Assembly: GCA_023137615.1 (NCBI GenBank)
Contig: JAGLOS010000001.1
Location: 1,067 to 65,066 of the forward strand
DNA length: 64,000 nt
Direction of reading: 5' to 3'
Source of the DNA: Minisyncoccota bacterium
GTDB lineage: Bacteria > Patescibacteriota > Minisyncoccia > Phycocordibacterales > JAGLOS01
Position numbers and translations under genes: made by a program. The notes under the pieces were generated by a model that saw nothing but the letters and a program-made list of their open reading frames with translations, made no database searches and had not been told where the DNA came from. This document shows, one piece after another, positions 18,399-55,045 of this stretch. The first letter of the stretch is position 1, and the number at the start of each line of letters is the position of its first letter.

Positions 18399-18574
18399 AA
18401 TAACAGGTATTAAACTCCAGAGCAAGCTCTGGACTCAATTTTGAGTTCGCTTCGCTCACACTGACCCGCGGCAAGCCGACGGGGTATTTACCTGATATTA
18501 GCTCCTCGGCTCGGGAATGTAAAAGTTACGCTTCGCTCCACTTTTACATTCCGCTCGCTCTACGTCGCTAATAA
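18399..18574 (+). repeat. MITE-like intergenic repeat, family R1, copy A
   Basis: 176 bp between divergent cupin and U32 genes. Termini are taataacaggtattaaactccagag ... cgctcgctctacgtcgctaataa. Contains internal inverted repeat gaatgtaaaagt/acttttacattc. An inverted, longer copy lies at 52081-52370. Confidence 0.7.
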
Positions 18575-20002: not shown

Positions 20003-20206
20003 TTATTTCTCCCAATCCTCTACGATAAGCTTTTTGCCTACCTTACGAACGGTGAGTTTTTGTCTTTCTTTCCACCCGAGTTCTCGAATGTACCCTATCG
20101 GTAATGTTATGCCGTAACTTGAGCCACCGGCAAACTTGGTGAGCTTGCGAATGTTCTCTTCCCCTATTTTTCGCCGTGTTTTCATATACCCCATTATACC
20201 AAACAT
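20003..20206 (-). CDS. AbrB/MazE/SpoVT-family swapped-hairpin DNA-binding protein
   Basis: 50-67 aa depending on start. GGSSYGITLPIGYIRELGWKERQKLTV matches the AbrB/MazE fold motif. No adjacent toxin gene. Confidence 0.6.
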   Translation of the reverse strand: MFGIMGYMKTRRKIGEENIRKLTKFAGGSSYGITLPIGYIRELGWKERQKLTVRKVGKKLIVEDWEK

Positions 20207-20229
20207 CTACGTAGATATCTACGTAGATG
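20204..20229. promoter_or_regulatory. perfect 26-bp palindrome, candidate operator
   Basis: catctacgtagat|atctacgtagatg is two tandem self-complementary 12-mers atctacgtagat. It overlaps the 5' end of the AbrB-like gene and sits next to a TATAAT on the minus strand. Confidence 0.55.
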
Positions 20230-20369
20230 TTTGAGGTTAAAATAGATGAGTTCTGACCCTCCCCTCCTGATTTTTTTTGTTTCCTTTTTATTCTTTATGT
20301 TAAACTGGTATTAATTAGTGGTAATAATTACATTACGCAGAATTTGGATAAATTTCGATAAACAAAAAT

Positions 20370-21893
20370 ATGAAAAAGGTAATAATAATATTTTTATTTA
20401 TAATAATAATTTTTGCAGCCTACGCATTTTACGAAAACGAGCGGCAGAATAGTAAATATTTTATTTACACAAATGATTATAAGCCGAGTCTTAGTAGTAA
20501 AACCGCTGAATACGACAAGCTTGATTGCTCAAACGATGGAACCAAAGATTGCATAATACTAGCTGAAGAGATCAAAAATGTTTCCGAAAAAATTGCAAAT
20601 TTATTAACAAAAGAAGATAATTTTTATGATCAAATTAAAAATTATGAATATGAAGAAATTAACAGTCAAGATGCCAACCTGTTAAAAAAAGAAAGCAATA
20701 GTAATTTTGTTGATAGTACCTTAGAAAAATATAAAGAAATGGGTTTTGATATAGAATACTTCAAACATGGCAAAATTGAAGCTATTTTAGATGACGGGGG
20801 TATATTATTTACCGACAATACTGATGAAGATCTATATTTTTATGACACCGGATACATATTCAAGGCACCATGTGATAATGATGTAAAAAAGGCAAAAGCG
20901 GTTTTGAATAAAGATGGTTTTATAGATGGGATATACCAAATTGATAATAATTGTGAAACTTATTATTACATTGGTCGTAAAAAATTTTACGATAGAATAA
21001 TAAAATCATATACGGGAAGGGAAAAACTTTTAGGATATGATTATGCAAACAGATTAACACTTAATGACGATAAAACAGCTTTTGCTTTTTTTTATTCATA
21101 CCCCCATGAAGCAAGTTTATTAAGCGCAAAAGACAGAAGCCGTAGTAATTTTTTAGCATATCAAGATATTTCAGAGATAAGAACAACCATGAATATTCTT
21201 GATACCTTAACGGATAAAGGTCTGGAAGTATCAGAAAAAATTCTTGAAATAAATGAAAAATTTGAAAAAAGTATCGTTACAAACACTTTAAACACTCTTT
21301 TACCAAAAAAAATAACAAATAGTGGAATTGAGCCCGAAGAAATGTACGATATTGTCATAGGAAATGAAACTAATATTTATAACAAACTAATGGGAAAGAA
21401 AACTCTCGATGATAGCGAGAATAGCGAGGAGGAAGAGATGAATACTAATAGTTATACTTTTGAAACAATAACTATGTATGACAAAGATGGCAAAAGATAC
21501 CCGACCGGCAGTGCAATACCGGAGATCTATAAAATGTGCTGGATTGGAAATGATCTATATTTTAGAGCTGACATTAACCCTAGGACCAAAGTGGTTGCAG
21601 ATATCTATACGATCAATTTTGAAAAAGTAGATTCTCGTAAAGAACCAAAATTAATACTAACAAATGACCCCGATGACCGTTCAAAATATTATTATCTTAC
21701 CGGGTGTTCTTCAAAGTTCGATCGTTTATATGTTGAATCATCCGGGGCTGAAAAATTTGGATATCTTGATCTAGACACCAAGGATATAACTTATCTTTTT
21801 GATACTAATGATATTACAGATTTACGAATCAATAATGAACTCATGAGCTTCGTTGATGAGTTTGGAAATAACTATATATTGGAATTAAATTAA
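20370..21893 (+). CDS. hypothetical secreted/membrane-anchored protein, N/K/D/Y-rich
   Basis: 507 aa. N-terminal hydrophobic anchor. Very AT-rich codon usage unlike neighbours. No recognisable domain. Confidence 0.5.
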   Translation: MKKVIIIFLFIIIIFAAYAFYENERQNSKYFIYTNDYKPSLSSKTAEYDKLDCSNDGTKDCIILAEEIKNVSEKIANLLTKEDNFYDQIKNYEYEEINSQDANLLKKESNSNFVDSTLEKYKEMGFDIEYFKHGKIEAILDDGGILFTDNTDEDLYFYDTGYIFKAPCDNDVKKAKAVLNKDGFIDGIYQIDNNCETYYYIGRKKFYDRIIKSYTGREKLLGYDYANRLTLNDDKTAFAFFYSYPHEASLLSAKDRSRSNFLAYQDISEIRTTMNILDTLTDKGLEVSEKILEINEKFEKSIVTNTLNTLLPKKITNSGIEPEEMYDIVIGNETNIYNKLMGKKTLDDSENSEEEEMNTNSYTFETITMYDKDGKRYPTGSAIPEIYKMCWIGNDLYFRADINPRTKVVADIYTINFEKVDSRKEPKLILTNDPDDRSKYYYLTGCSSKFDRLYVESSGAEKFGYLDLDTKDITYLFDTNDITDLRINNELMSFVDEFGNNYILELN

Positions 21894-22108
21894 CTCCTAT
21901 TTTCAAGCAAGGTCAGACCTTGCTAGGAATTTGCTATCCGGCTCTGAAACTCTTTAGTAAAAAGAAAGGGGAACAATAAGAAATGCTACACCATATCTTT
22001 TGTTATTAAACCGTGGTTCTATTTACACAGAGCAGAGATTTATGCCTATTTAGTTGGATAATTTTTTGGTAAAATAAGGAAGAAATTAAGAGCTAATGAT
22101 TTAAATAT

Positions 22109-22723
22109 ATGAAAAACAATTCTTCTAAAAAATGCGTTCTGATTGCAGTTATTATCGTTCTCGGGATCATCGCTATACTCTTTTATTTATTTAACCCACC
22201 AACCAAAAATTATTTTCTTAATTCCGGTAATACTCATTCAGTCGTTTCAGACGAATATCACAAGACTGGAACTGTAGACGCTTGGGTTTATCATTTTGGA
22301 GAATGGACTCCGAATAAAGCAGAAACCTATGGTTCTTTAATAAAATTTAATATTCTGGAATTAGAGAATGAAAAAACAGCGATGCTCCATCTTAATATCC
22401 AGGCTTTTGATAATAAAACGATCAAGGGTCAGCGTTGTTCTGAATCTAAAAAATTTAATGTTAAGAAAATTCTTTCTTCTTGGGATTACAAAACCGTAGG
22501 TTATTCTGGGATAGAGAATTTGCAAAACAACGGTGAGGTAATTGCTAATTTTACCGTTGACCCGGACGACAGTTTCGTAGAAGTGGAACTGCCGGTTAGC
22601 GAGCTCGCTGCTAATGGTTTTACCATTAGCCAAGCAGACGGAGTTTTATGTAGAGTTTCTTTTTATTCCCATTCAGACGATAATAATTCTGAAAAACATC
22701 CTTATTTTATTGTGAATAATTAG
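22109..22723 (+). CDS. hypothetical secreted protein
   Basis: 204 aa. N-terminal TM/signal anchor. Followed by the same aaggtcRgaccttgctRgg hairpin motif as the previous gene. Confidence 0.5.
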   Translation: MKNNSSKKCVLIAVIIVLGIIAILFYLFNPPTKNYFLNSGNTHSVVSDEYHKTGTVDAWVYHFGEWTPNKAETYGSLIKFNILELENEKTAMLHLNIQAFDNKTIKGQRCSESKKFNVKKILSSWDYKTVGYSGIENLQNNGEVIANFTVDPDDSFVEVELPVSELAANGFTISQADGVLCRVSFYSHSDDNNSEKHPYFIVNN

Positions 22724-23421
22724 TTTTTTAAGAAGGTTTAACTCTCTGTAAGGTCGGACCTTGCTGGGAACACCTTTTATAATTAACCCCTCCCATTAAC
22801 TCGCAGAGTTTGATTTTGACTCTTATTAAAAGTATAGTATATATATTATTATGTCTATATTTGGATTCCTAAAAAAGAATAAAAAAGACTTTAAAGCTGT
22901 TGCGGAAAGACAGCTGATTGAGAATGCATCAGTGCTTAAATCTTTGCGAGATCATGATGAAGGGAAAAAAGAAATTTCAACCACTGACGTCAAAAAACGT
23001 TTGCCAAATATACAAACTACTTCATAGTAGAGGTCTTGTTTCGTTTCCAATCACCCAAGATGCAAAAAATTCACAGCTTCTTTGTCATTGGAAATTATTT
23101 GCGAATTAAATGATCTGGAACCAAATTATTATGATTTCTCTCTTGACCAACTGGCTGTTTTTGTGGAACAAGTAAAAACACAAAAACATCAGCAATTTAT
23201 ACGCTTGTTAGCAAGCACTTTATTCGTGAGCAAGTAATAATAATTTCTAACCTTAACTTGCCTGTCCGCATTGCAAACAAGGCAGCATTTGCCGCCTTGC
23301 TCTAAAATTTTTTAGTAAAAAGAAAAAAACTTACCCACTTTTTTTAATGGGTAAATGAATCTTATAATGGTAAAATATCAGGTAATAAGAATCTCCGGTA
23401 TTTAGCGATAATCAAAACTTT

Positions 23422-24516: not shown

Positions 24517-24580
24517 TTTTGGCGGTTATGTCACTAAAACTACTCTATACAAGGAGTCTTTACTACTTATTTGTCATGGG

Positions 24581-24678
24581 GTGCACTGCTCGCTCCACTT
24601 CGTTACGCTCCCAGCACTGTCCTTTGACAAAGCGACATAAAAACCGATGCTTTCGCATCGGTTTTTATGTCGGTCAAA
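24581..24678 (+). repeat. tRNA-flanking repeat, family R3, copy 1
   Basis: gtgcactgctcgctccacttcgttacgctcccagcac ... aaaaccgatgctttcgcatcggttttt. A related copy lies at 30490-30576. Both abut a minus-oriented tRNA 3' end. Confidence 0.6.
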
Positions 24679-24864
24679 GGGTGCCTACCCGGAATATTCA
24701 CTGCTCACTCCTTTCAGTCGTTGCGCTTTCGGAACCCACGGTTCCGAATGACCTCCTCCACGGGGGCGTTCCGCTGCCCCCGACCCCCTACGGGTTCAAA
24801 TCCGGGTAGACAACTTCTGATAACAAATAAACGACTAGCAAAAAGCTAGCCGTTTATTTGTTAT

Positions 24865-25203: not shown

Positions 25204-26184
25204 TTACATATCCCAAGTGAAACCGTTCCCAAAATGACCATATTGCGCGGTTTGGTAAAATTGCGGTTTGCGCAGATCAAGAAATTCAATAATAGCTTGC
25301 GGACGAAGATCATAACCTTTTACTTTTTCTTCTCTTCCGTCAACAAACGCAGTTGCCGCAAGCGGCTCGGGGTGTCCAATAGCGTATGCGATCTTCACCA
25401 CAGCTTCTTTCGCTCCCGCTTTTACATGATCCACGGCAATCTTGCGCGCCATGTATGCGGCGCTTCTATCTACTTTTGTTGCATCTTTTCCGGAAAAAGC
25501 GCCTCCCCCAACCGCAACACGCGGACCATACGCGTCCACTACGATCTTTCTGCCTGTGAGTCCCGCATCCGCGGCAAACCCACCTATTCTCCATTTACCG
25601 TTTGGATTTTTCATCCATGTTTTTTTAATATCGCCGTCAATATATGAGGCTATTTCTTTTTCAAAAACTTCATTCAAAACGACATCGCTTAAATCCCCAC
25701 TTTCACATAATGAAGTTATCACGTTAATGATCCTGCCCTCTTTTACTGTAACTTGCGCTTTGCCGTCGTGCCGCCCCATTGATCTTATCAATTTCCGAGC
25801 AAGTGACATCTCAAGCGGCATGAATTCCGGCGTCTCGTCGGTGGCATATCCAACCATGATACCTTGATCCCCCGCACCTTCATTGTCAACTCCTTTTTTA
25901 ATTTCATTACTTTGTCCGGAAACATAAACGGATATATCAACGTCATCTGTATATCCATTGTCTTTATATACTTGTTTAGCAATACTCTTGTAAACATTTT
26001 CTTCAATTGGCGCGTTTGTGGTGATCTCTCCTGTAAGCACAATATTGCCGTGCCCGCCAAGTGTCTCTATCGCCACTCGCGAATACGAGTCATGCTCCAA
26101 ACAAAAATCTAAAATAGCATCTGAGATTTGATCGCACACTTTGTCGGGGTGCGCCCGAGATACTGCTTCTGCTGTTTGAATCAT
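25204..26184 (-). CDS. metK: S-adenosylmethionine synthetase (short form)
   Basis: 326 aa. GHPDKVCDQISDA, GAGDQG and GGGAFSGKD motifs. Confidence 0.85.
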   Translation of the reverse strand: MIQTAEAVSRAHPDKVCDQISDAILDFCLEHDSYSRVAIETLGGHGNIVLTGEITTNAPIEENVYKSIAKQVYKDNGYTDDVDISVYVSGQSNEIKKGVDNEGAGDQGIMVGYATDETPEFMPLEMSLARKLIRSMGRHDGKAQVTVKEGRIINVITSLCESGDLSDVVLNEVFEKEIASYIDGDIKKTWMKNPNGKWRIGGFAADAGLTGRKIVVDAYGPRVAVGGGAFSGKDATKVDRSAAYMARKIAVDHVKAGAKEAVVKIAYAIGHPEPLAATAFVDGREEKVKGYDLRPQAIIEFLDLRKPQFYQTAQYGHFGNGFTWDM

Positions 26185-26210: not shown

Positions 26211-26278
26211 AAAAAACTTTCCTCGTGAGGGAAAGATACGTTTAAGTCTGCTAGACAATAGTATCTTTCCCAAAAGGG
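26211..26278 (-). promoter_or_regulatory. metK leader terminator/antiterminator (attenuator-type expression platform)
   Basis: On the metK strand: gggaaagatac (21 nt) gtatctttccc tcac gaggaaag tttttt. The 11-bp antiterminator stem and the ctttcc/ggaaag terminator stem share ctttccc. The T-run ends about 26 nt before the ATG. Confidence 0.5.
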
Positions 26279-26385
26279 TACGAATGGAGCACCTTCCAAT
26301 TTGTGTCACCAAAAAGTGGTTGCTGGACGGATCATAGAGTCGTATCTCTTCCCGCCGCTCGTGATATTTTTCTATATTCGATTAT

Positions 26386-26410: not shown

Positions 26411-26567
26411 AGGATAACAAGATTGACAAGAAAGTAGTTACAAAAAAATACGCTTGACATATTTTGTGCTGAGCTAGTAGGGAGTTAGTCGCGAACACTT
26501 AGTTTTTTGAATATTTCATTTCGTTTCACTCATAAAATATTCTTAAAAGGTCTTGCGGAATGGGTCC

Positions 26568-26692
26568 CAGCCCCTTCTCCTCCACTTCGTTACAGAGCGG
26601 GGACCCGCTGCTCCGTCTTTCAACTCCCGCTCTGGGCTACATAATACAGCAACCCCGAAGCGCTGCTTCAGGGTTGGTATTTTGTGCTGAGT
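26568..26692 (+). repeat. 121-bp direct repeat unit B, copy 1
   Basis: Identical to the 26776-26895 copy. Contains an inverted copy of the tRNA-Leu 3' end (tcaactcccgctctgggc) and the ctccacttcgttac motif shared with family R3. Confidence 0.75.
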
Positions 26693-26775
26693 TGGTAGGG
26701 AGCTGGTCACGAATCACTAAGCTTTTTGTTCGTCTTTCAGACTCCAAAAAACTAAGTGTTCGCGACCCCGACTCG

Positions 26776-26895
26776 CAGCCCCTTCTCCTCCACTTCGTTA
26801 CAGAGCGGGGACCCGCTGCTCCGTCTTTCAACTCCCGCTCTGGGCTACATAATACAGCAACCCCGAAGCGCTGCTTCAGGGTTGGTATTTTGTGC
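26776..26895 (+). repeat. 121-bp direct repeat unit B, copy 2
   Basis: 100 percent identical to copy 1. Runs directly into the 3' end of tRNA-Leu. Confidence 0.75.
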
Positions 26896-26977
26896 CCAGA
26901 GCGGGAGTTGAACCCGCACGGTCGCAATGACCACTAGCCCCTCAAGCTAGCGTGTATACCAGTTTCACCACCTGGGC
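26893..26977 (-). tRNA. tRNA-Leu(GAG)
   Basis: 85 nt with long variable arm. Anticodon loop TTGAGGG. T-arm GCGGGTTCAACTCCCGC. Confidence 0.8.
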
Positions 26978-52054: not shown

Positions 52055-52080
52055 CAAAAAACCGCCTTTCGGCGGTTTTT

Positions 52081-52370
52081 TTATTAGCGACGTAGAGCGA
52101 GCGGAATGTAAAAGTGGAGCGAAACGCAACTTTTACATTTCCAAGCCGAGGATCTAATATCGGATAAACCCGTCTGCCGGCAGGCGGGTACTCCGTCGGC
52201 TTGCTGCGGGAAAATGTGAGCAAAACGAATTCAAAATTGAGTCCAGAGTGAGAAGCGAATACTTGGAGCTTCGCAAGACTCATTGAGAGCTTTTATGAGC
52301 AAAGCGAAATAAAAGATCCAATGAGTGGACAGAACCTGTAAGGTTTGCTCTGGGGTTTAATACCTGTTAT
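52081..52370 (-). repeat. MITE-like repeat family R1, copy B (inverted, extended)
   Basis: Reverse complement of copy A, with the same termini (ttattagcgacgtagagcgagcgg ... tttaatacctgttatt). Carries two internal insertions of about 25 and about 100 bp relative to copy A. Confidence 0.7.
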
Positions 52371-54581: not shown

Positions 54582-55045
54582 CTATCTAAAATTCTAAACA
54601 ATGCGATCCCCGCTGTCACTGAAACATTCAACGATTCCTTTTCCCCTTTCATCGGTACCTCCGCGATGATGTCACATTTATCTAAAACTTCCTTTTCAAT
54701 ACCATCGGGTTCATTTCCAAAAACAAAAGCTATCTTTCCTTCTACCTTGATCTCTTTATAATCTACAGAATTTTCATTCTGCTCTATAGCAACCACTTTA
54801 AACCCCTCTTTCTGAAGTTTTGGTATTAAATTTTTTATATCTTCTACATATTCCCAATTTACTGACTTCTCTGCACCAAGTGCCACCTTCGCAAGGTCCG
54901 ACCTTGCAATATTAAAACGATCTACCGGCTGTGGAGTATACCCGCACAAAACTATTTCATCTATCCCCGCCGCATCACACGTGCGGAAGATCGAGCCGAC
55001 ATTATAGACACTTCGAACATTATAAAGAATTACTTTTGTTTGCAT
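54578..55045 (-). CDS. SpoU/TrmH-family RNA 2'-O-methyltransferase (TrmL-like)
   Basis: 155 aa SPOUT fold. NVGSIFRTCDAAG and FVFGNEPDGI motifs. Confidence 0.8.
   Translation of the reverse strand: MQTKVILYNVRSVYNVGSIFRTCDAAGIDEIVLCGYTPQPVDRFNIARSDLAKVALGAEKSVNWEYVEDIKNLIPKLQKEGFKVVAIEQNENSVDYKEIKVEGKIAFVFGNEPDGIEKEVLDKCDIIAEVPMKGEKESLNVSVTAGIALFRILDS

What the first reader, a model, noticed from the sequence alone, without database searches (positions are those of the whole stretch)
20003..23230. AT-rich two-gene islet of secreted proteins beside an orphan AbrB/MazE-like regulator with a perfect tandem-palindrome operator
Genes 20370-21893 and 22109-22723 are markedly more AT-rich and N/K/Y-rich than the flanking housekeeping genes. 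Each has an N-terminal signal anchor and ends with the same hairpin motif aaggtcRgaccttgctRgg. Immediately upstream, the AbrB-like gene's 5' end is overlapped by catctacgtagat|atctacgtagatg, two tandem self-complementary 12-mers and a textbook dimer-of-dimers operator. No toxin partner is present. Downstream (22850-23230) there are short out-of-frame ORF fragments suggestive of gene decay. Together this looks like a horizontally acquired or fast-evolving surface-protein cassette under a dedicated repressor.
Basis: seen in the sequence. Interest (0 to 1): 0.5.

Follow-up and report, generated by a model that had tools for sequence, protein, structure and literature searches.

The report
Self-regulating mini-repressor beside variable surface genes
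In an uncultured Paceibacterota (CPR) bacterium, a 60-residue AbrB-type DNA-binding protein with a perfect palindromic operator in its own promoter lies next to a strain-variable, AT-rich pair of membrane-anchored surface-protein genes; it is probably not their dedicated switch, and the repressor-plus-operator unit is one copy of a widespread family design that I found no description of.

Summary
A 34-bp perfect palindrome (20200-20233, two tandem ATCTACGTAGAT) lies next to a 60-aa AbrB/MazE-fold gene. Two AT-rich genes with a single N-terminal hydrophobic anchor follow it, and each ends with a shared hairpin motif. No toxin gene is present.

Corrections:
- The palindrome covers the -35 and spacer of an extended -10 promoter, not the coding 5' end. 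The mRNA is probably leaderless.
- Only the 507-aa gene is a clear composition outlier.
- Two of the three "decay" ORFs share one frame.

The regulator belongs to a large Paceibacterota family (more than 500 metagenomic loci). Nearly every member is preceded by 12-bp-periodic dyads N4-(AC/CA)(GT/TG)-N4'. The outer bases co-vary with a loop residue of the protein. This supports autorepression.

The family sits beside unrelated genes. Its closest relatives (at least 90% identical, same operator) head an ABC-exporter operon instead. No second operator lies in front of the islet genes. "Dedicated repressor of the cassette" is therefore not supported.

Verdict: ordinary accessory surface genes beside a new variant of a known regulator type.

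The parts
20003..20185 (-). 60-aa single-domain AbrB/MazE/SpoVT-fold DNA-binding protein (MKTRRKIGEENIRKLTK...EDWEK)
   Evidence: PF04014 at 25.9 bits against a cut-off of 24.7. Gene callers use this start. The family alignment begins at MKTRRK. 59 homologues and more than 500 metagenomic loci.
20200..20233 (.). 34-bp perfect palindrome: two tandem self-complementary 12-mers ATCTACGTAGAT (20205-20228) plus symmetric flanks. Inferred operator.
   Evidence: The identical 24-mer is kept upstream of homologues that are 80-92% identical. The family-wide dyad architecture is shown.
20193..20221 (-). Promoter of the AbrB-like gene: -35 TAGATA (20221-20216, inside the palindrome), 17-nt spacer, extended -10 TGgTATAAT (20201-20193). 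The ATG lies 7 nt after the -10, so the mRNA is probably leaderless.
   Evidence: Consensus scan, 10 of 12 with TG. The same layout is found in 8 homologous loci. The transcription start is inferred, not measured.
20370..21893 (+). 507-aa protein: N-terminal hydrophobic anchor or signal, low-confidence helical stalk, beta-propeller ectodomain interrupted by a helical insert
21905..21927 (+). Hairpin AGCAAGGTCAGACCTTGCT after the 507-aa gene (8-bp stem, 3-nt loop, no U-tract)
21929..21967 (+). Copy 1 of an intergenic repeat (ATTTGC...GCTCTGAAACTCTTTAGTAAAAAGAAA)
   Evidence: Direct repeat D1, 79% identical to 23287-23325. Also matches the end of strain-variant contig L024.
22028..22108 (+). Upstream region that travels with the 204-aa gene. 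It includes a TGGTAAAAT -10-like element read by eye at about 22065-22073.
   Evidence: Nucleotide homology to L025 starts at 22028 and to L026-L029 at 22062.
22109..22723 (+). 204-aa membrane-anchored protein with a divergent DNRLRE (CBM96-like) domain
   Evidence: NF033679 E 4.9e-5, covering profile positions 22-163 of 164, below the cut-off. All 6 family members hit it, best E 1.1e-7. Hydropathy. The AF2 model was poor.
22748..22770 (+). Second hairpin GTAAGGTCGGACCTTGC after the 204-aa gene
   Evidence: Not part of the homology with L025 and absent from all other fetched loci.
22851..23237 (+). 58-aa ORF ending in TAG TAG, then 18 codons, then a 51-aa TTG ORF in the same frame. Status unknown.
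   Evidence: The 58-aa ORF is called as a gene in public annotation. No Pfam or NCBIfam hit. No homology in the related loci.
23257..23325 (+). Copy 2 of the intergenic element (imperfect hairpin CAAGGCAGCATTTGCCGCCTTG plus the shared tail). In strain variant L024 this element directly follows the 507-aa gene.
   Evidence: 62 of 69 identical to the last 69 nt of L024

Best explanation
Two separate things lie side by side in a Paceibacterota (CPR) genome.

(1) A self-contained autoregulatory unit of about 235 bp. A 60-aa protein consisting only of an AbrB/MazE/SpoVT-type DNA-binding domain is transcribed, probably without a leader, from an extended -10 promoter. The -35 and spacer of that promoter are occupied by two tandem 12-bp dyads. 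Two protein dimers are inferred to bind the dyads and block RNA polymerase, which would give negative feedback. This is one member of a large Paceibacterota family. In that family every gene carries its own array of 12-bp dyads N4-(AC/CA)(GT/TG)-N4' at or next to its promoter. The unit occurs in front of many unrelated genes, and in a subset it is the first gene of an operon.

(2) A 3.2-kb AT-rich accessory segment (20186-23421). It encodes two membrane-anchored extracytoplasmic proteins, each with its own upstream region. One is a beta-propeller and the other is a DNRLRE/CBM96-like putative glycan-binding module. Repeated hairpin-containing intergenic elements of about 70 nt separate the genes. 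Recombination at or near these elements changes the gene content between strains.

Shown: the sequence features, the family-wide operator architecture, the fold class of the 507-aa protein, and the strain differences. Inferred: DNA binding and repression, leaderless transcription, surface location, glycan binding, and recombination at the repeats.
For: Regulator and operator:
- PF04014 match in 36 of 37 family members.
- 53 of 75 homologue upstream regions carry at least one dyad unit (shuffles: mean 7.9). 25 of 75 carry two or more in exact 12-bp register (shuffles: 0).
- The operator always sits at the promoter: upstream of a -10 that lies 6-8 nt from the ATG (8 loci), or directly after or overlapping the -10 (11 loci).
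- Operator class tracks protein residue 22 in the GG-x-S loop: ATCT with S/A, AATT with K, ATTT with H (MI 1.5 bits, z 11).
- Homologues 80-92% identical keep the identical 24-mer while their flanks are unrelated.

Independence from the islet:
- One operator in 64 kb.
- The relatives' neighbours are diverse: ABC exporter, restriction enzymes, methyltransferases, aminoacyl-tRNA synthetase and others.
- No 507- or 204-aa homologue is found near any relative.
- The regulator gene is 44% GC against 32% for the islet.

Islet:
- GC and GC3 outlier.
- Very small protein families.
- Beta-propeller fold.
- DNRLRE match in all six family members.
- Variant contig L024 has 2 differences in 11.1 kb, then 26 in the last 380 bp of the gene with pN/pS 0.3. 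It then joins to the element that in the window lies at 23257-23325.
- The 204-aa gene occurs in four other, unrelated contexts.
Against: - No experiment shows binding or repression.
- The covariation is not corrected for phylogeny.
- The regulator and the 507-aa gene are divergent and share one 184-bp intergenic region. A weak -10-like TAAAAT at 20238-20243 (+), read by eye, abuts the palindrome, so co-repression of the 507-aa gene cannot be excluded.
- Only 64 kb of the genome was available, so further operator copies elsewhere are unknown.
- L024 ends 81 nt after the gene. Absence of the 204-aa segment in that strain is inferred from the junction, not seen across it.
- The DNRLRE match is below NCBI's cut-off and the AF2 model of that protein failed.
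Confidence: 0.65

Rival explanations
1. The AbrB-like protein is the dedicated repressor of the surface-protein cassette. Bound to the palindrome in the shared divergent intergenic region, it shuts off the 507-aa gene (and indirectly the 204-aa gene) together with its own gene.
For: - The genes are divergent with a single 184-bp intergenic region.
- The palindrome is symmetric and could serve both directions.
- A -10-like TAAAAT lies directly beside it on the + strand (read by eye).
- In several homologous loci the regulator appears to control a neighbouring gene by position.
Against: - The palindrome ends 137 bp before the 507-aa start codon. The consensus scan lists no + strand promoter overlapping it.
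- There is no dyad in front of the 204-aa gene or anywhere else in the window.
- In relatives the gene that is apparently controlled lies downstream on the regulator's own strand, not divergent.
- No relative has a 507- or 204-aa homologue nearby.
- Strain variation starts inside the 507-aa gene, not at the regulator.
Confidence: 0.15
2. The small protein is the surviving antitoxin of a decayed type II toxin-antitoxin pair (MazE, VapB or PrlF type). The palindrome is the old toxin-antitoxin operator.
For: - The Pfam family is named MazE_antitoxin.
- Some sources label homologues as the antitoxin of YhaV-PrlF.
- Autoregulation through promoter palindromes is typical of antitoxins (established knowledge).
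Against: - The protein is 60 aa with no C-terminal extension for binding a toxin.
- Among 30 co-directional downstream neighbours of homologues, none of the 20 scanned is a known toxin family, and they range from 74 to 1048 aa with unrelated functions.
- Sequence conservation is high across hundreds of loci. That fits a functional stand-alone protein.
Confidence: 0.05
3. The palindrome is not a protein-binding operator. It is a structural or recombination element (a cruciform or rearrangement hotspot) that merely marks synteny breakpoints.
For: - Nucleotide homology between the window and its closest relatives begins within about 12 nt of the outer edge of the palindrome.
- Among relatives L114, L118 and L120, shared sequence also begins there.
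- Long perfect palindromes are known to be fragile (established knowledge).
Against: - The element is always tied to the promoter of one protein family. It keeps a 12-bp register and a conserved core while its outer bases co-vary with the protein. That is what a cognate operator would show.
- Syntenic relatives also lose detectable nucleotide homology just outside the unit. The breakpoint pattern is therefore partly an effect of stronger constraint on the unit.
Confidence: 0.05

Closest known systems
AbrB/MazE/SpoVT superfamily transcription factors (Pfam PF04014; swapped-hairpin DNA-binding domain)
   Same: Significant domain match in the window protein and in 36 of 37 relatives. Small dimer-forming DNA-binding domain (established knowledge). 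A palindromic site in its own promoter implies autorepression.
   Different: - Consists of the domain only (60 aa). It has neither the C-terminal multimerisation domain of B. subtilis AbrB or SpoVT nor the toxin-binding tail of MazE.
- It has a conserved basic N-terminal arm (RRK..NIRKLTK).
- No close relative has a solved structure detectable by sequence.
- It uses a strict 12-bp-periodic dyad array, whereas AbrB is known for loose sequence specificity (my knowledge).
Type II antitoxins with an AbrB-type fold (MazE, VapB, PrlF)
   Same: Domain family and promoter-embedded palindromic operator.
   Different: No toxin gene here or in any examined relative. No C-terminal tail.
Controller (C) proteins of restriction-modification systems
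   Same: A small autoregulated DNA-binding protein with dyad boxes at its own promoter. In a subset of relatives it lies immediately upstream of, and on the same strand as, restriction or modification genes: NgoPII, DpnI, type IIG/ISP enzymes, a D12 methyltransferase and a type I S subunit.
   Different: C proteins are helix-turn-helix proteins (established knowledge), whereas this one has an AbrB fold. The window copy has no restriction-modification neighbour. Most relatives sit beside other kinds of genes.
DNRLRE domain / CBM96 carbohydrate-binding module (NCBIfam NF033679; PMC9971899, PMC2447325)
   Same: The 204-aa protein and all five relatives match nearly the full length of the domain model. 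The domain is typical of cell-surface proteins and some polysaccharide lyases.
   Different: The score is below NCBI's cut-off (23.5 against 34 bits). Here the domain stands alone on a membrane anchor rather than inside a large multidomain enzyme. The fold is not confirmed.
Extracytoplasmic beta-propeller proteins (TolB, YncE, the Tricorn and prolyl-oligopeptidase propellers)
   Different: Sequence identity is at most 16%. There is a helical insertion (about residues 268-340) within the propeller region, an N-terminal anchor and a long stalk. No catalytic domain is attached and no Pfam match exists.

Membership tests
AbrB/MazE/SpoVT DNA-binding domain (PF04014) | Sequence match to the domain model at or above Pfam's gathering score | tested here: met
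   25.5 bits (67-aa ORF) and 25.9 bits (60-aa protein) against a cut-off of 24.7. 36 of 37 family members match, best E 3.1e-9.
AbrB/MazE/SpoVT DNA-binding domain (PF04014) | Swapped-hairpin beta-barrel formed by a homodimer | not tested
A profile search of PDB sequences found no relative.
AbrB/MazE/SpoVT DNA-binding domain (PF04014) | Sequence-specific binding to the promoter operator | not testable with these tools
   Only comparative support is available: conserved dyad arrays at the promoters of homologues and operator-protein covariation.
Type II toxin-antitoxin system (AbrB-fold antitoxin) | Adjacent co-transcribed toxin gene | tested here: not met
   In the window the downstream gene is a convergent U32 peptidase 44 nt away. 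The homologues' neighbours are diverse and non-toxin.
Type II toxin-antitoxin system (AbrB-fold antitoxin) | C-terminal toxin-binding extension after the DNA-binding domain | tested here: not met
   The protein ends 5 residues after the domain match (residues 19-55 of 60). Most family members are 56-63 aa.
B. subtilis-type AbrB/SpoVT transition-state regulators | C-terminal oligomerisation or GAF domain giving tetramers | tested here: not met
   60 aa, single domain.
Restriction-modification controller (C) protein | Helix-turn-helix fold, with the gene immediately upstream of a restriction endonuclease gene | tested here: not met
   AbrB-type domain, not helix-turn-helix. No restriction-modification gene lies next to the window copy. 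Only a subset of relatives is adjacent to such genes.
DNRLRE / CBM96 domain (204-aa protein) | Match to NF033679 at or above NCBI's cut-off | tested here: inconclusive
   23.5 bits against a cut-off of 34, E 4.9e-5, near full-length. All 6 family members match, best E 1.1e-7. hhalign against one CBM96 protein from L025 was not significant.
DNRLRE / CBM96 domain (204-aa protein) | Beta-sandwich fold | tested here: inconclusive
   AF2 with 6 sequences gave mean pLDDT 46, too low to use.
Beta-propeller fold (507-aa protein) | Structural similarity to solved propellers | tested here: met
Horizontally acquired genomic island | Deviant composition plus mobility genes (integrase or transposase) and flanking direct repeats or a tRNA target | tested here: inconclusive
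   Composition is deviant. No integrase or transposase domain was found in the ORFs of 20003-23237. There is a 39-nt direct repeat at 79% identity. tRNA-His is 1.4 kb away, not adjacent.
Integron gene cassette array | Promoterless cassettes each ending in an attC site, next to an intI integrase | tested here: not met
   No integrase domain was found in the ORFs of the finding or its immediate flanks. The 204-aa gene carries its own conserved upstream region. The hairpins are 19-23 nt, not attC-like, and are absent from the other copies of the 204-aa gene.

The most novel reading that the evidence does not exclude
The 60-aa protein and its dyad array form a portable, multi-copy control unit specific to Paceibacterota. 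The unit is duplicated within genomes: two copies with the same operator class occur on single contigs. It is placed in front of whatever gene needs feedback-limited expression, including restriction-modification genes, where it would be an AbrB-fold analogue of C proteins. One loop residue (position 22) would set which outer tetranucleotide of the 12-bp dyad is read, giving a simple and possibly re-programmable recognition code.
Probability: 0.3. Interest if true: 0.6.

Novelty: new variant of a known kind. Interest (0 to 1): 0.4.

Why it matters
Almost nothing is known experimentally about gene regulation in CPR/Patescibacteria, which have tiny genomes and few recognisable transcription factors.

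This is a very small, abundant and highly conserved DNA-binding protein. Its operator can be read directly from the sequence in hundreds of loci, and there is an apparent one-residue-to-operator-class relationship. That makes it an unusually tractable entry point. The binding sites, promoter layout and candidate specificity residue are all explicit predictions that a gel-shift and a reporter assay could test.

For the islet the message is more modest. It is another example of strain-variable, lineage-specific surface proteins (a propeller and a putative glycan-binding module). Such proteins are thought to mediate the host-attached lifestyle of these bacteria.

Tried and rejected
- Synteny through the flanking U32 peptidase. 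The best species-representative relatives are only 47-58% identical. None carries an AbrB-like, 507-aa or 204-aa homologue. They are too distant to be a fair synteny test.
- AF2 of the 204-aa protein with its 6-sequence alignment gave pLDDT 46 and was unusable. A profile search of PDB sequences found nothing. hhalign against one CBM96 protein was not significant.
- A profile of the AbrB-like family against PDB sequences gave no meaningful hit.
- Viral contigs contain no relative of the regulator and no copy of the 24-mer. A phage origin is not supported.
- The third copy of the hairpin motif (54887-54905) lies inside a 155-aa ORF that looks SpoU/TrmH-like by eye, so I treated it as coincidence. 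The hairpins have no U-tract and their folding z-scores are unremarkable. I do not call them terminators.
- I tested whether the ORFs at 22851-23237 are remnants of a gene linked to the 204-aa gene elsewhere. There is no similarity to any neighbour in L025-L030. Stop-codon reassignment is rejected because TAG ends 22 of 61 ORFs.
- [quoted passage not shown]. I weakened this after seeing that clearly syntenic relatives show the same cut-off. I rely on protein-level neighbour differences instead.
- Orthogonal operators among paralogues are rejected. Paralogues on one contig share the operator class.
- Literature searches combining AbrB with Patescibacteria, candidate phyla radiation, Parcubacteria or restriction-modification controllers returned nothing relevant.
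- The afdb50 fold library was unavailable.
Full report
**Origin**

The window is from an uncultured Paceibacterota (CPR) bacterium. Window 10370-30773 is 99.99% identical to contig DAOWAJ010000009.1 of GCA_030634645.1. The public names of its proteins read "Candidatus Pacebacteria bacterium" on a 66.5-kb contig. The window is 38.8% GC.

**Checking the observation**

*Palindrome.* It is real and larger than described. Arms 20200-20216 and 20217-20233 are perfectly complementary with no spacer. They contain two exact tandem copies of the self-complementary 12-mer ATCTACGTAGAT (20205-20228). The other long perfect palindromes in the window are ordinary bidirectional terminators, with an A-run, a GC stem and a T-run.

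*Regulator gene.* The neighbouring minus-strand ORF matches PF04014 (MazE/AbrB/SpoVT domain) just above Pfam's cut-off. The ORF list starts it at ATG 20206, inside the palindrome. Public gene calls and the alignment of 36 relatives start at ATG 20185, which gives 60 aa.

*Promoter.* On the minus strand the sequence reads TAGATA, 17 nt, TGgTATAAT, GGGGTAT, ATG (and read). The palindrome therefore covers the -35 and spacer of an extended -10 promoter. The start codon lies 7 nt after the -10, which suggests a leaderless mRNA. That is an inference.

*Composition.*
- The 500-nt windows at 20501-21500 are 28-30% GC, the lowest in the window.
- The 507-aa gene has the lowest GC of 68 ORFs (30.0%, z -2.6; GC3 24.5%).
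- The 204-aa gene is only mildly low (34.8%, rank 4; GC3 rank 12).
- The regulator gene itself is 44% GC.

*Anchors and hairpins.* Each islet protein has one strongly hydrophobic N-terminal segment and no other. The shared 3' motif is present after both genes, with none expected by chance. A third, weaker match lies inside a coding ORF. None occurs in any other fetched locus. The hairpins have 8-bp stems but no U-tract.

*Downstream ORFs.* ORFs 22851-23027 and 23082-23237 are in the same frame, separated by TAG TAG and 18 codons. TAG is a normal stop codon here.

**The regulator and its operator**

*Family size.* The word-indexed search found 59 relatives of 44-100 aa, most 56-63 aa. Where sources give a name it is Paceibacterota or Parcubacteria. 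None is in IMG/VR.

*Operator architecture.* I extracted the 160 nt upstream of 75 loci.
- Nearly all carry palindromes next to the start codon.
- The common design is a 12-bp unit: four outer bases, a core of (AC or CA)(GT or TG), then the complement of the outer four. Units are repeated head to tail.
- 53 of 75 regions have at least one unit (shuffles: mean 7.9, maximum 17).
- 25 of 75 have two to four units in exact 12-bp register (shuffles: never).

*Position relative to the promoter.* Where an extended -10 is recognisable (19 of 52 loci), two layouts appear. In 8 loci, including the window, the array lies just upstream of a -10 that is 6-8 nt from the ATG. In 11 loci it follows or overlaps the -10. 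Either position would block RNA polymerase.

*Covariation with the protein.* The outer tetranucleotide differs between subfamilies (ATCT, AATT, ATTT, TATT and others). It tracks the protein sequence, most strongly residue 22 in the GG-x-S loop. The pairings are S/A with ATCT, K with AATT, and H with ATTT. This is not corrected for shared ancestry.

*Conclusion.* Together this is strong comparative evidence that the palindrome is the cognate operator and that the unit is autorepressed.

**Is it the repressor of the islet?**

The evidence points away from that.
- The dyad occurs nowhere else in the 64-kb window.
- Relatives 80-92% identical (L114-L117) keep the identical 24-mer, but their flanks are unrelated to the window.
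- Relatives in the cluster at 90% identity or more, from another MAG of the same study (L118/L119, L120, also L114), carry the same 34-bp palindrome and promoter. There the unit lies 30 nt upstream of, and on the same strand as, a YknX/HlyD-like adaptor, a MacB-type ATPase and an FtsX permease. A penicillin-binding protein lies on the other side.
- In the window that operon is absent. The gene is followed after 44 nt by the convergent U32 peptidase.
- Across the 80 JGI loci the neighbours are mostly unique (100 singletons in an all-against-all comparison).
- Of 30 co-directional downstream genes, the 20 scanned include NgoPII and DpnI restriction enzymes, a type IIG/ISP enzyme (one of a cluster of three homologous downstream genes), a D12 methyltransferase, a type I S subunit, RadC, a PIF1 helicase, endonuclease III, seryl-tRNA synthetase, a GH43 enzyme, a flavodoxin and others. 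None is a toxin.
- Some contigs hold two copies of the unit with the same operator class.
- No relative has a 507- or 204-aa homologue nearby.

I cannot exclude that the bound operator also dampens the divergent 507-aa gene. A weak -10-like TAAAAT abuts the palindrome on the plus strand. However, the palindrome ends 137 bp from that gene's start codon, and the consensus scan finds no overlapping plus-strand promoter.

**The islet proteins**

*The 507-aa protein.*
- It has only one near-identical relative in the word-indexed search and six relatives (28-47% identity, plus a 97% strain variant) among 1.84 billion representatives.
- With that small alignment, AF2 is confident for residues 110-200 and 365-507.
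- Its closest homologue sits in a cluster of large secreted and membrane proteins.

*The 204-aa protein.* It belongs to a family of six. All six match the DNRLRE domain model over nearly its full length but below the curated cut-off. That domain is the CBM96 carbohydrate-binding module and occurs in S-layer and other surface proteins (PMC9971899). The AF2 model was too poor to confirm the fold.

**Strain variation**

- Contig L024, from a sister sample, differs from the window at 2 positions in 11.1 kb. It then differs at 26 positions in the last 380 bp of the 507-aa gene. pN/pS there is 0.3. That means a functional gene that recombined with a diverged allele.
- Directly after the stop codon, L024 continues with a 69-nt element that is 90% identical to window 23257-23325. 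In the window that element lies after the 204-aa gene and the small ORFs. The contig then ends.
- The window has a related element after the 507-aa gene as well (21929-21967).
- In the same sister sample the 88%-identical 204-aa gene lies on another contig with different neighbours. Homology is limited to 22028-22741. Three further contexts exist in other metagenomes.
- The 204-aa gene therefore behaves as a movable gene with its own upstream region. The repeated intergenic elements are plausible recombination points, which is an inference.
- No integrase or transposase domain was found in the ORFs of the finding.

**Comparison with known systems**

- The regulator is a member of the AbrB/MazE/SpoVT superfamily by sequence.
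- It fails the defining features of a toxin-antitoxin antitoxin: no toxin gene and no C-terminal tail.
- It fails those of B. subtilis AbrB or SpoVT: no C-terminal domain.
- It fails those of restriction-modification C proteins: wrong fold, and no restriction-modification neighbour here.
- It works like an autorepressor of the antitoxin or C-protein kind.
- I found no paper in the held library that treats this family or its operator design. That is absence of evidence only.

**Verdict**

The islet is an ordinary example of strain-variable CPR surface genes, with new members of known folds. The regulator-operator unit is a new variant of a known regulator type, with a clean and testable operator grammar. 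The proposed functional link between the two is not supported.

Noticed in passing
window 18465-18557 (+), 52074-52168 (-); L025 8358-8450: An intergenic element of about 95 nt, repeated at 89% identity within the window and also present in a contig from a sister sample. It has a long hairpin (GGAATGTAAAAGT...ACTTTTACATTCC) with compensatory changes on both sides at three predicted pairs. No Rfam family matches it.
   Followed up: partly
window 26258-26370 (-): A sub-threshold match to the SAM riboswitch (S-box): 33.8 bits against a gathering score of 44.4, E 3.8e-5, full model length. It lies directly upstream of the S-adenosylmethionine synthetase gene (25204-26184, -). It is probably a divergent but real riboswitch.
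   Followed up: partly
window 26565-26687 and 26773-26895: A 123-nt direct repeat (99% identical) abutting tRNA-Leu (26892-26977). One public contig ends inside it. The surrounding 26500-26940 is 51-56% GC and looks non-coding.
   Followed up: no
window 24519-24860: A GC-rich (about 48-52%) stretch between the Na/Pi cotransporter gene and tRNA-His. It contains a tRNA T-arm-like sequence (GGTTCAAATCC, 24784-24812, +) that ARAGORN did not call. Bases 24608-24684 are 82% identical to part of an unrelated contig (L120 547-620). It may be an unrecognised or interrupted tRNA or small RNA.
   Followed up: no
L118 6001-9825; L114; L120: Relatives of the regulator at 90% identity or more, with the identical 34-bp palindrome, head a YknX/HlyD-like adaptor, MacB-type ABC ATPase and FtsX permease operon. 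Shared sequence among these loci starts at the outer edge of the palindrome.
   Followed up: partly
L031 50-229 and 499-675; L070 5001-5168 and 6352-6507; L065 841-930 and 4998-5171: Two copies of the AbrB-like unit on one contig, each with its own dyad array of the same operator class. One of the L065 copies is truncated. The unit is therefore multi-copy within genomes.
   Followed up: partly
L116 1189-2222: In an 80%-identical relative the regulator's stop codon overlaps the start (ATGA) of a 284-aa protein. By eye that protein has a PD-(D/E)xK nuclease-like motif. It was not scanned against any library.
   Followed up: no
window-wide, 39 gene starts: Only 10 of 39 checked genes have a Shine-Dalgarno-like motif in the 20 nt before the start codon, and none of the islet genes does. 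Translation initiation in this genome seems largely Shine-Dalgarno-independent.
   Followed up: no
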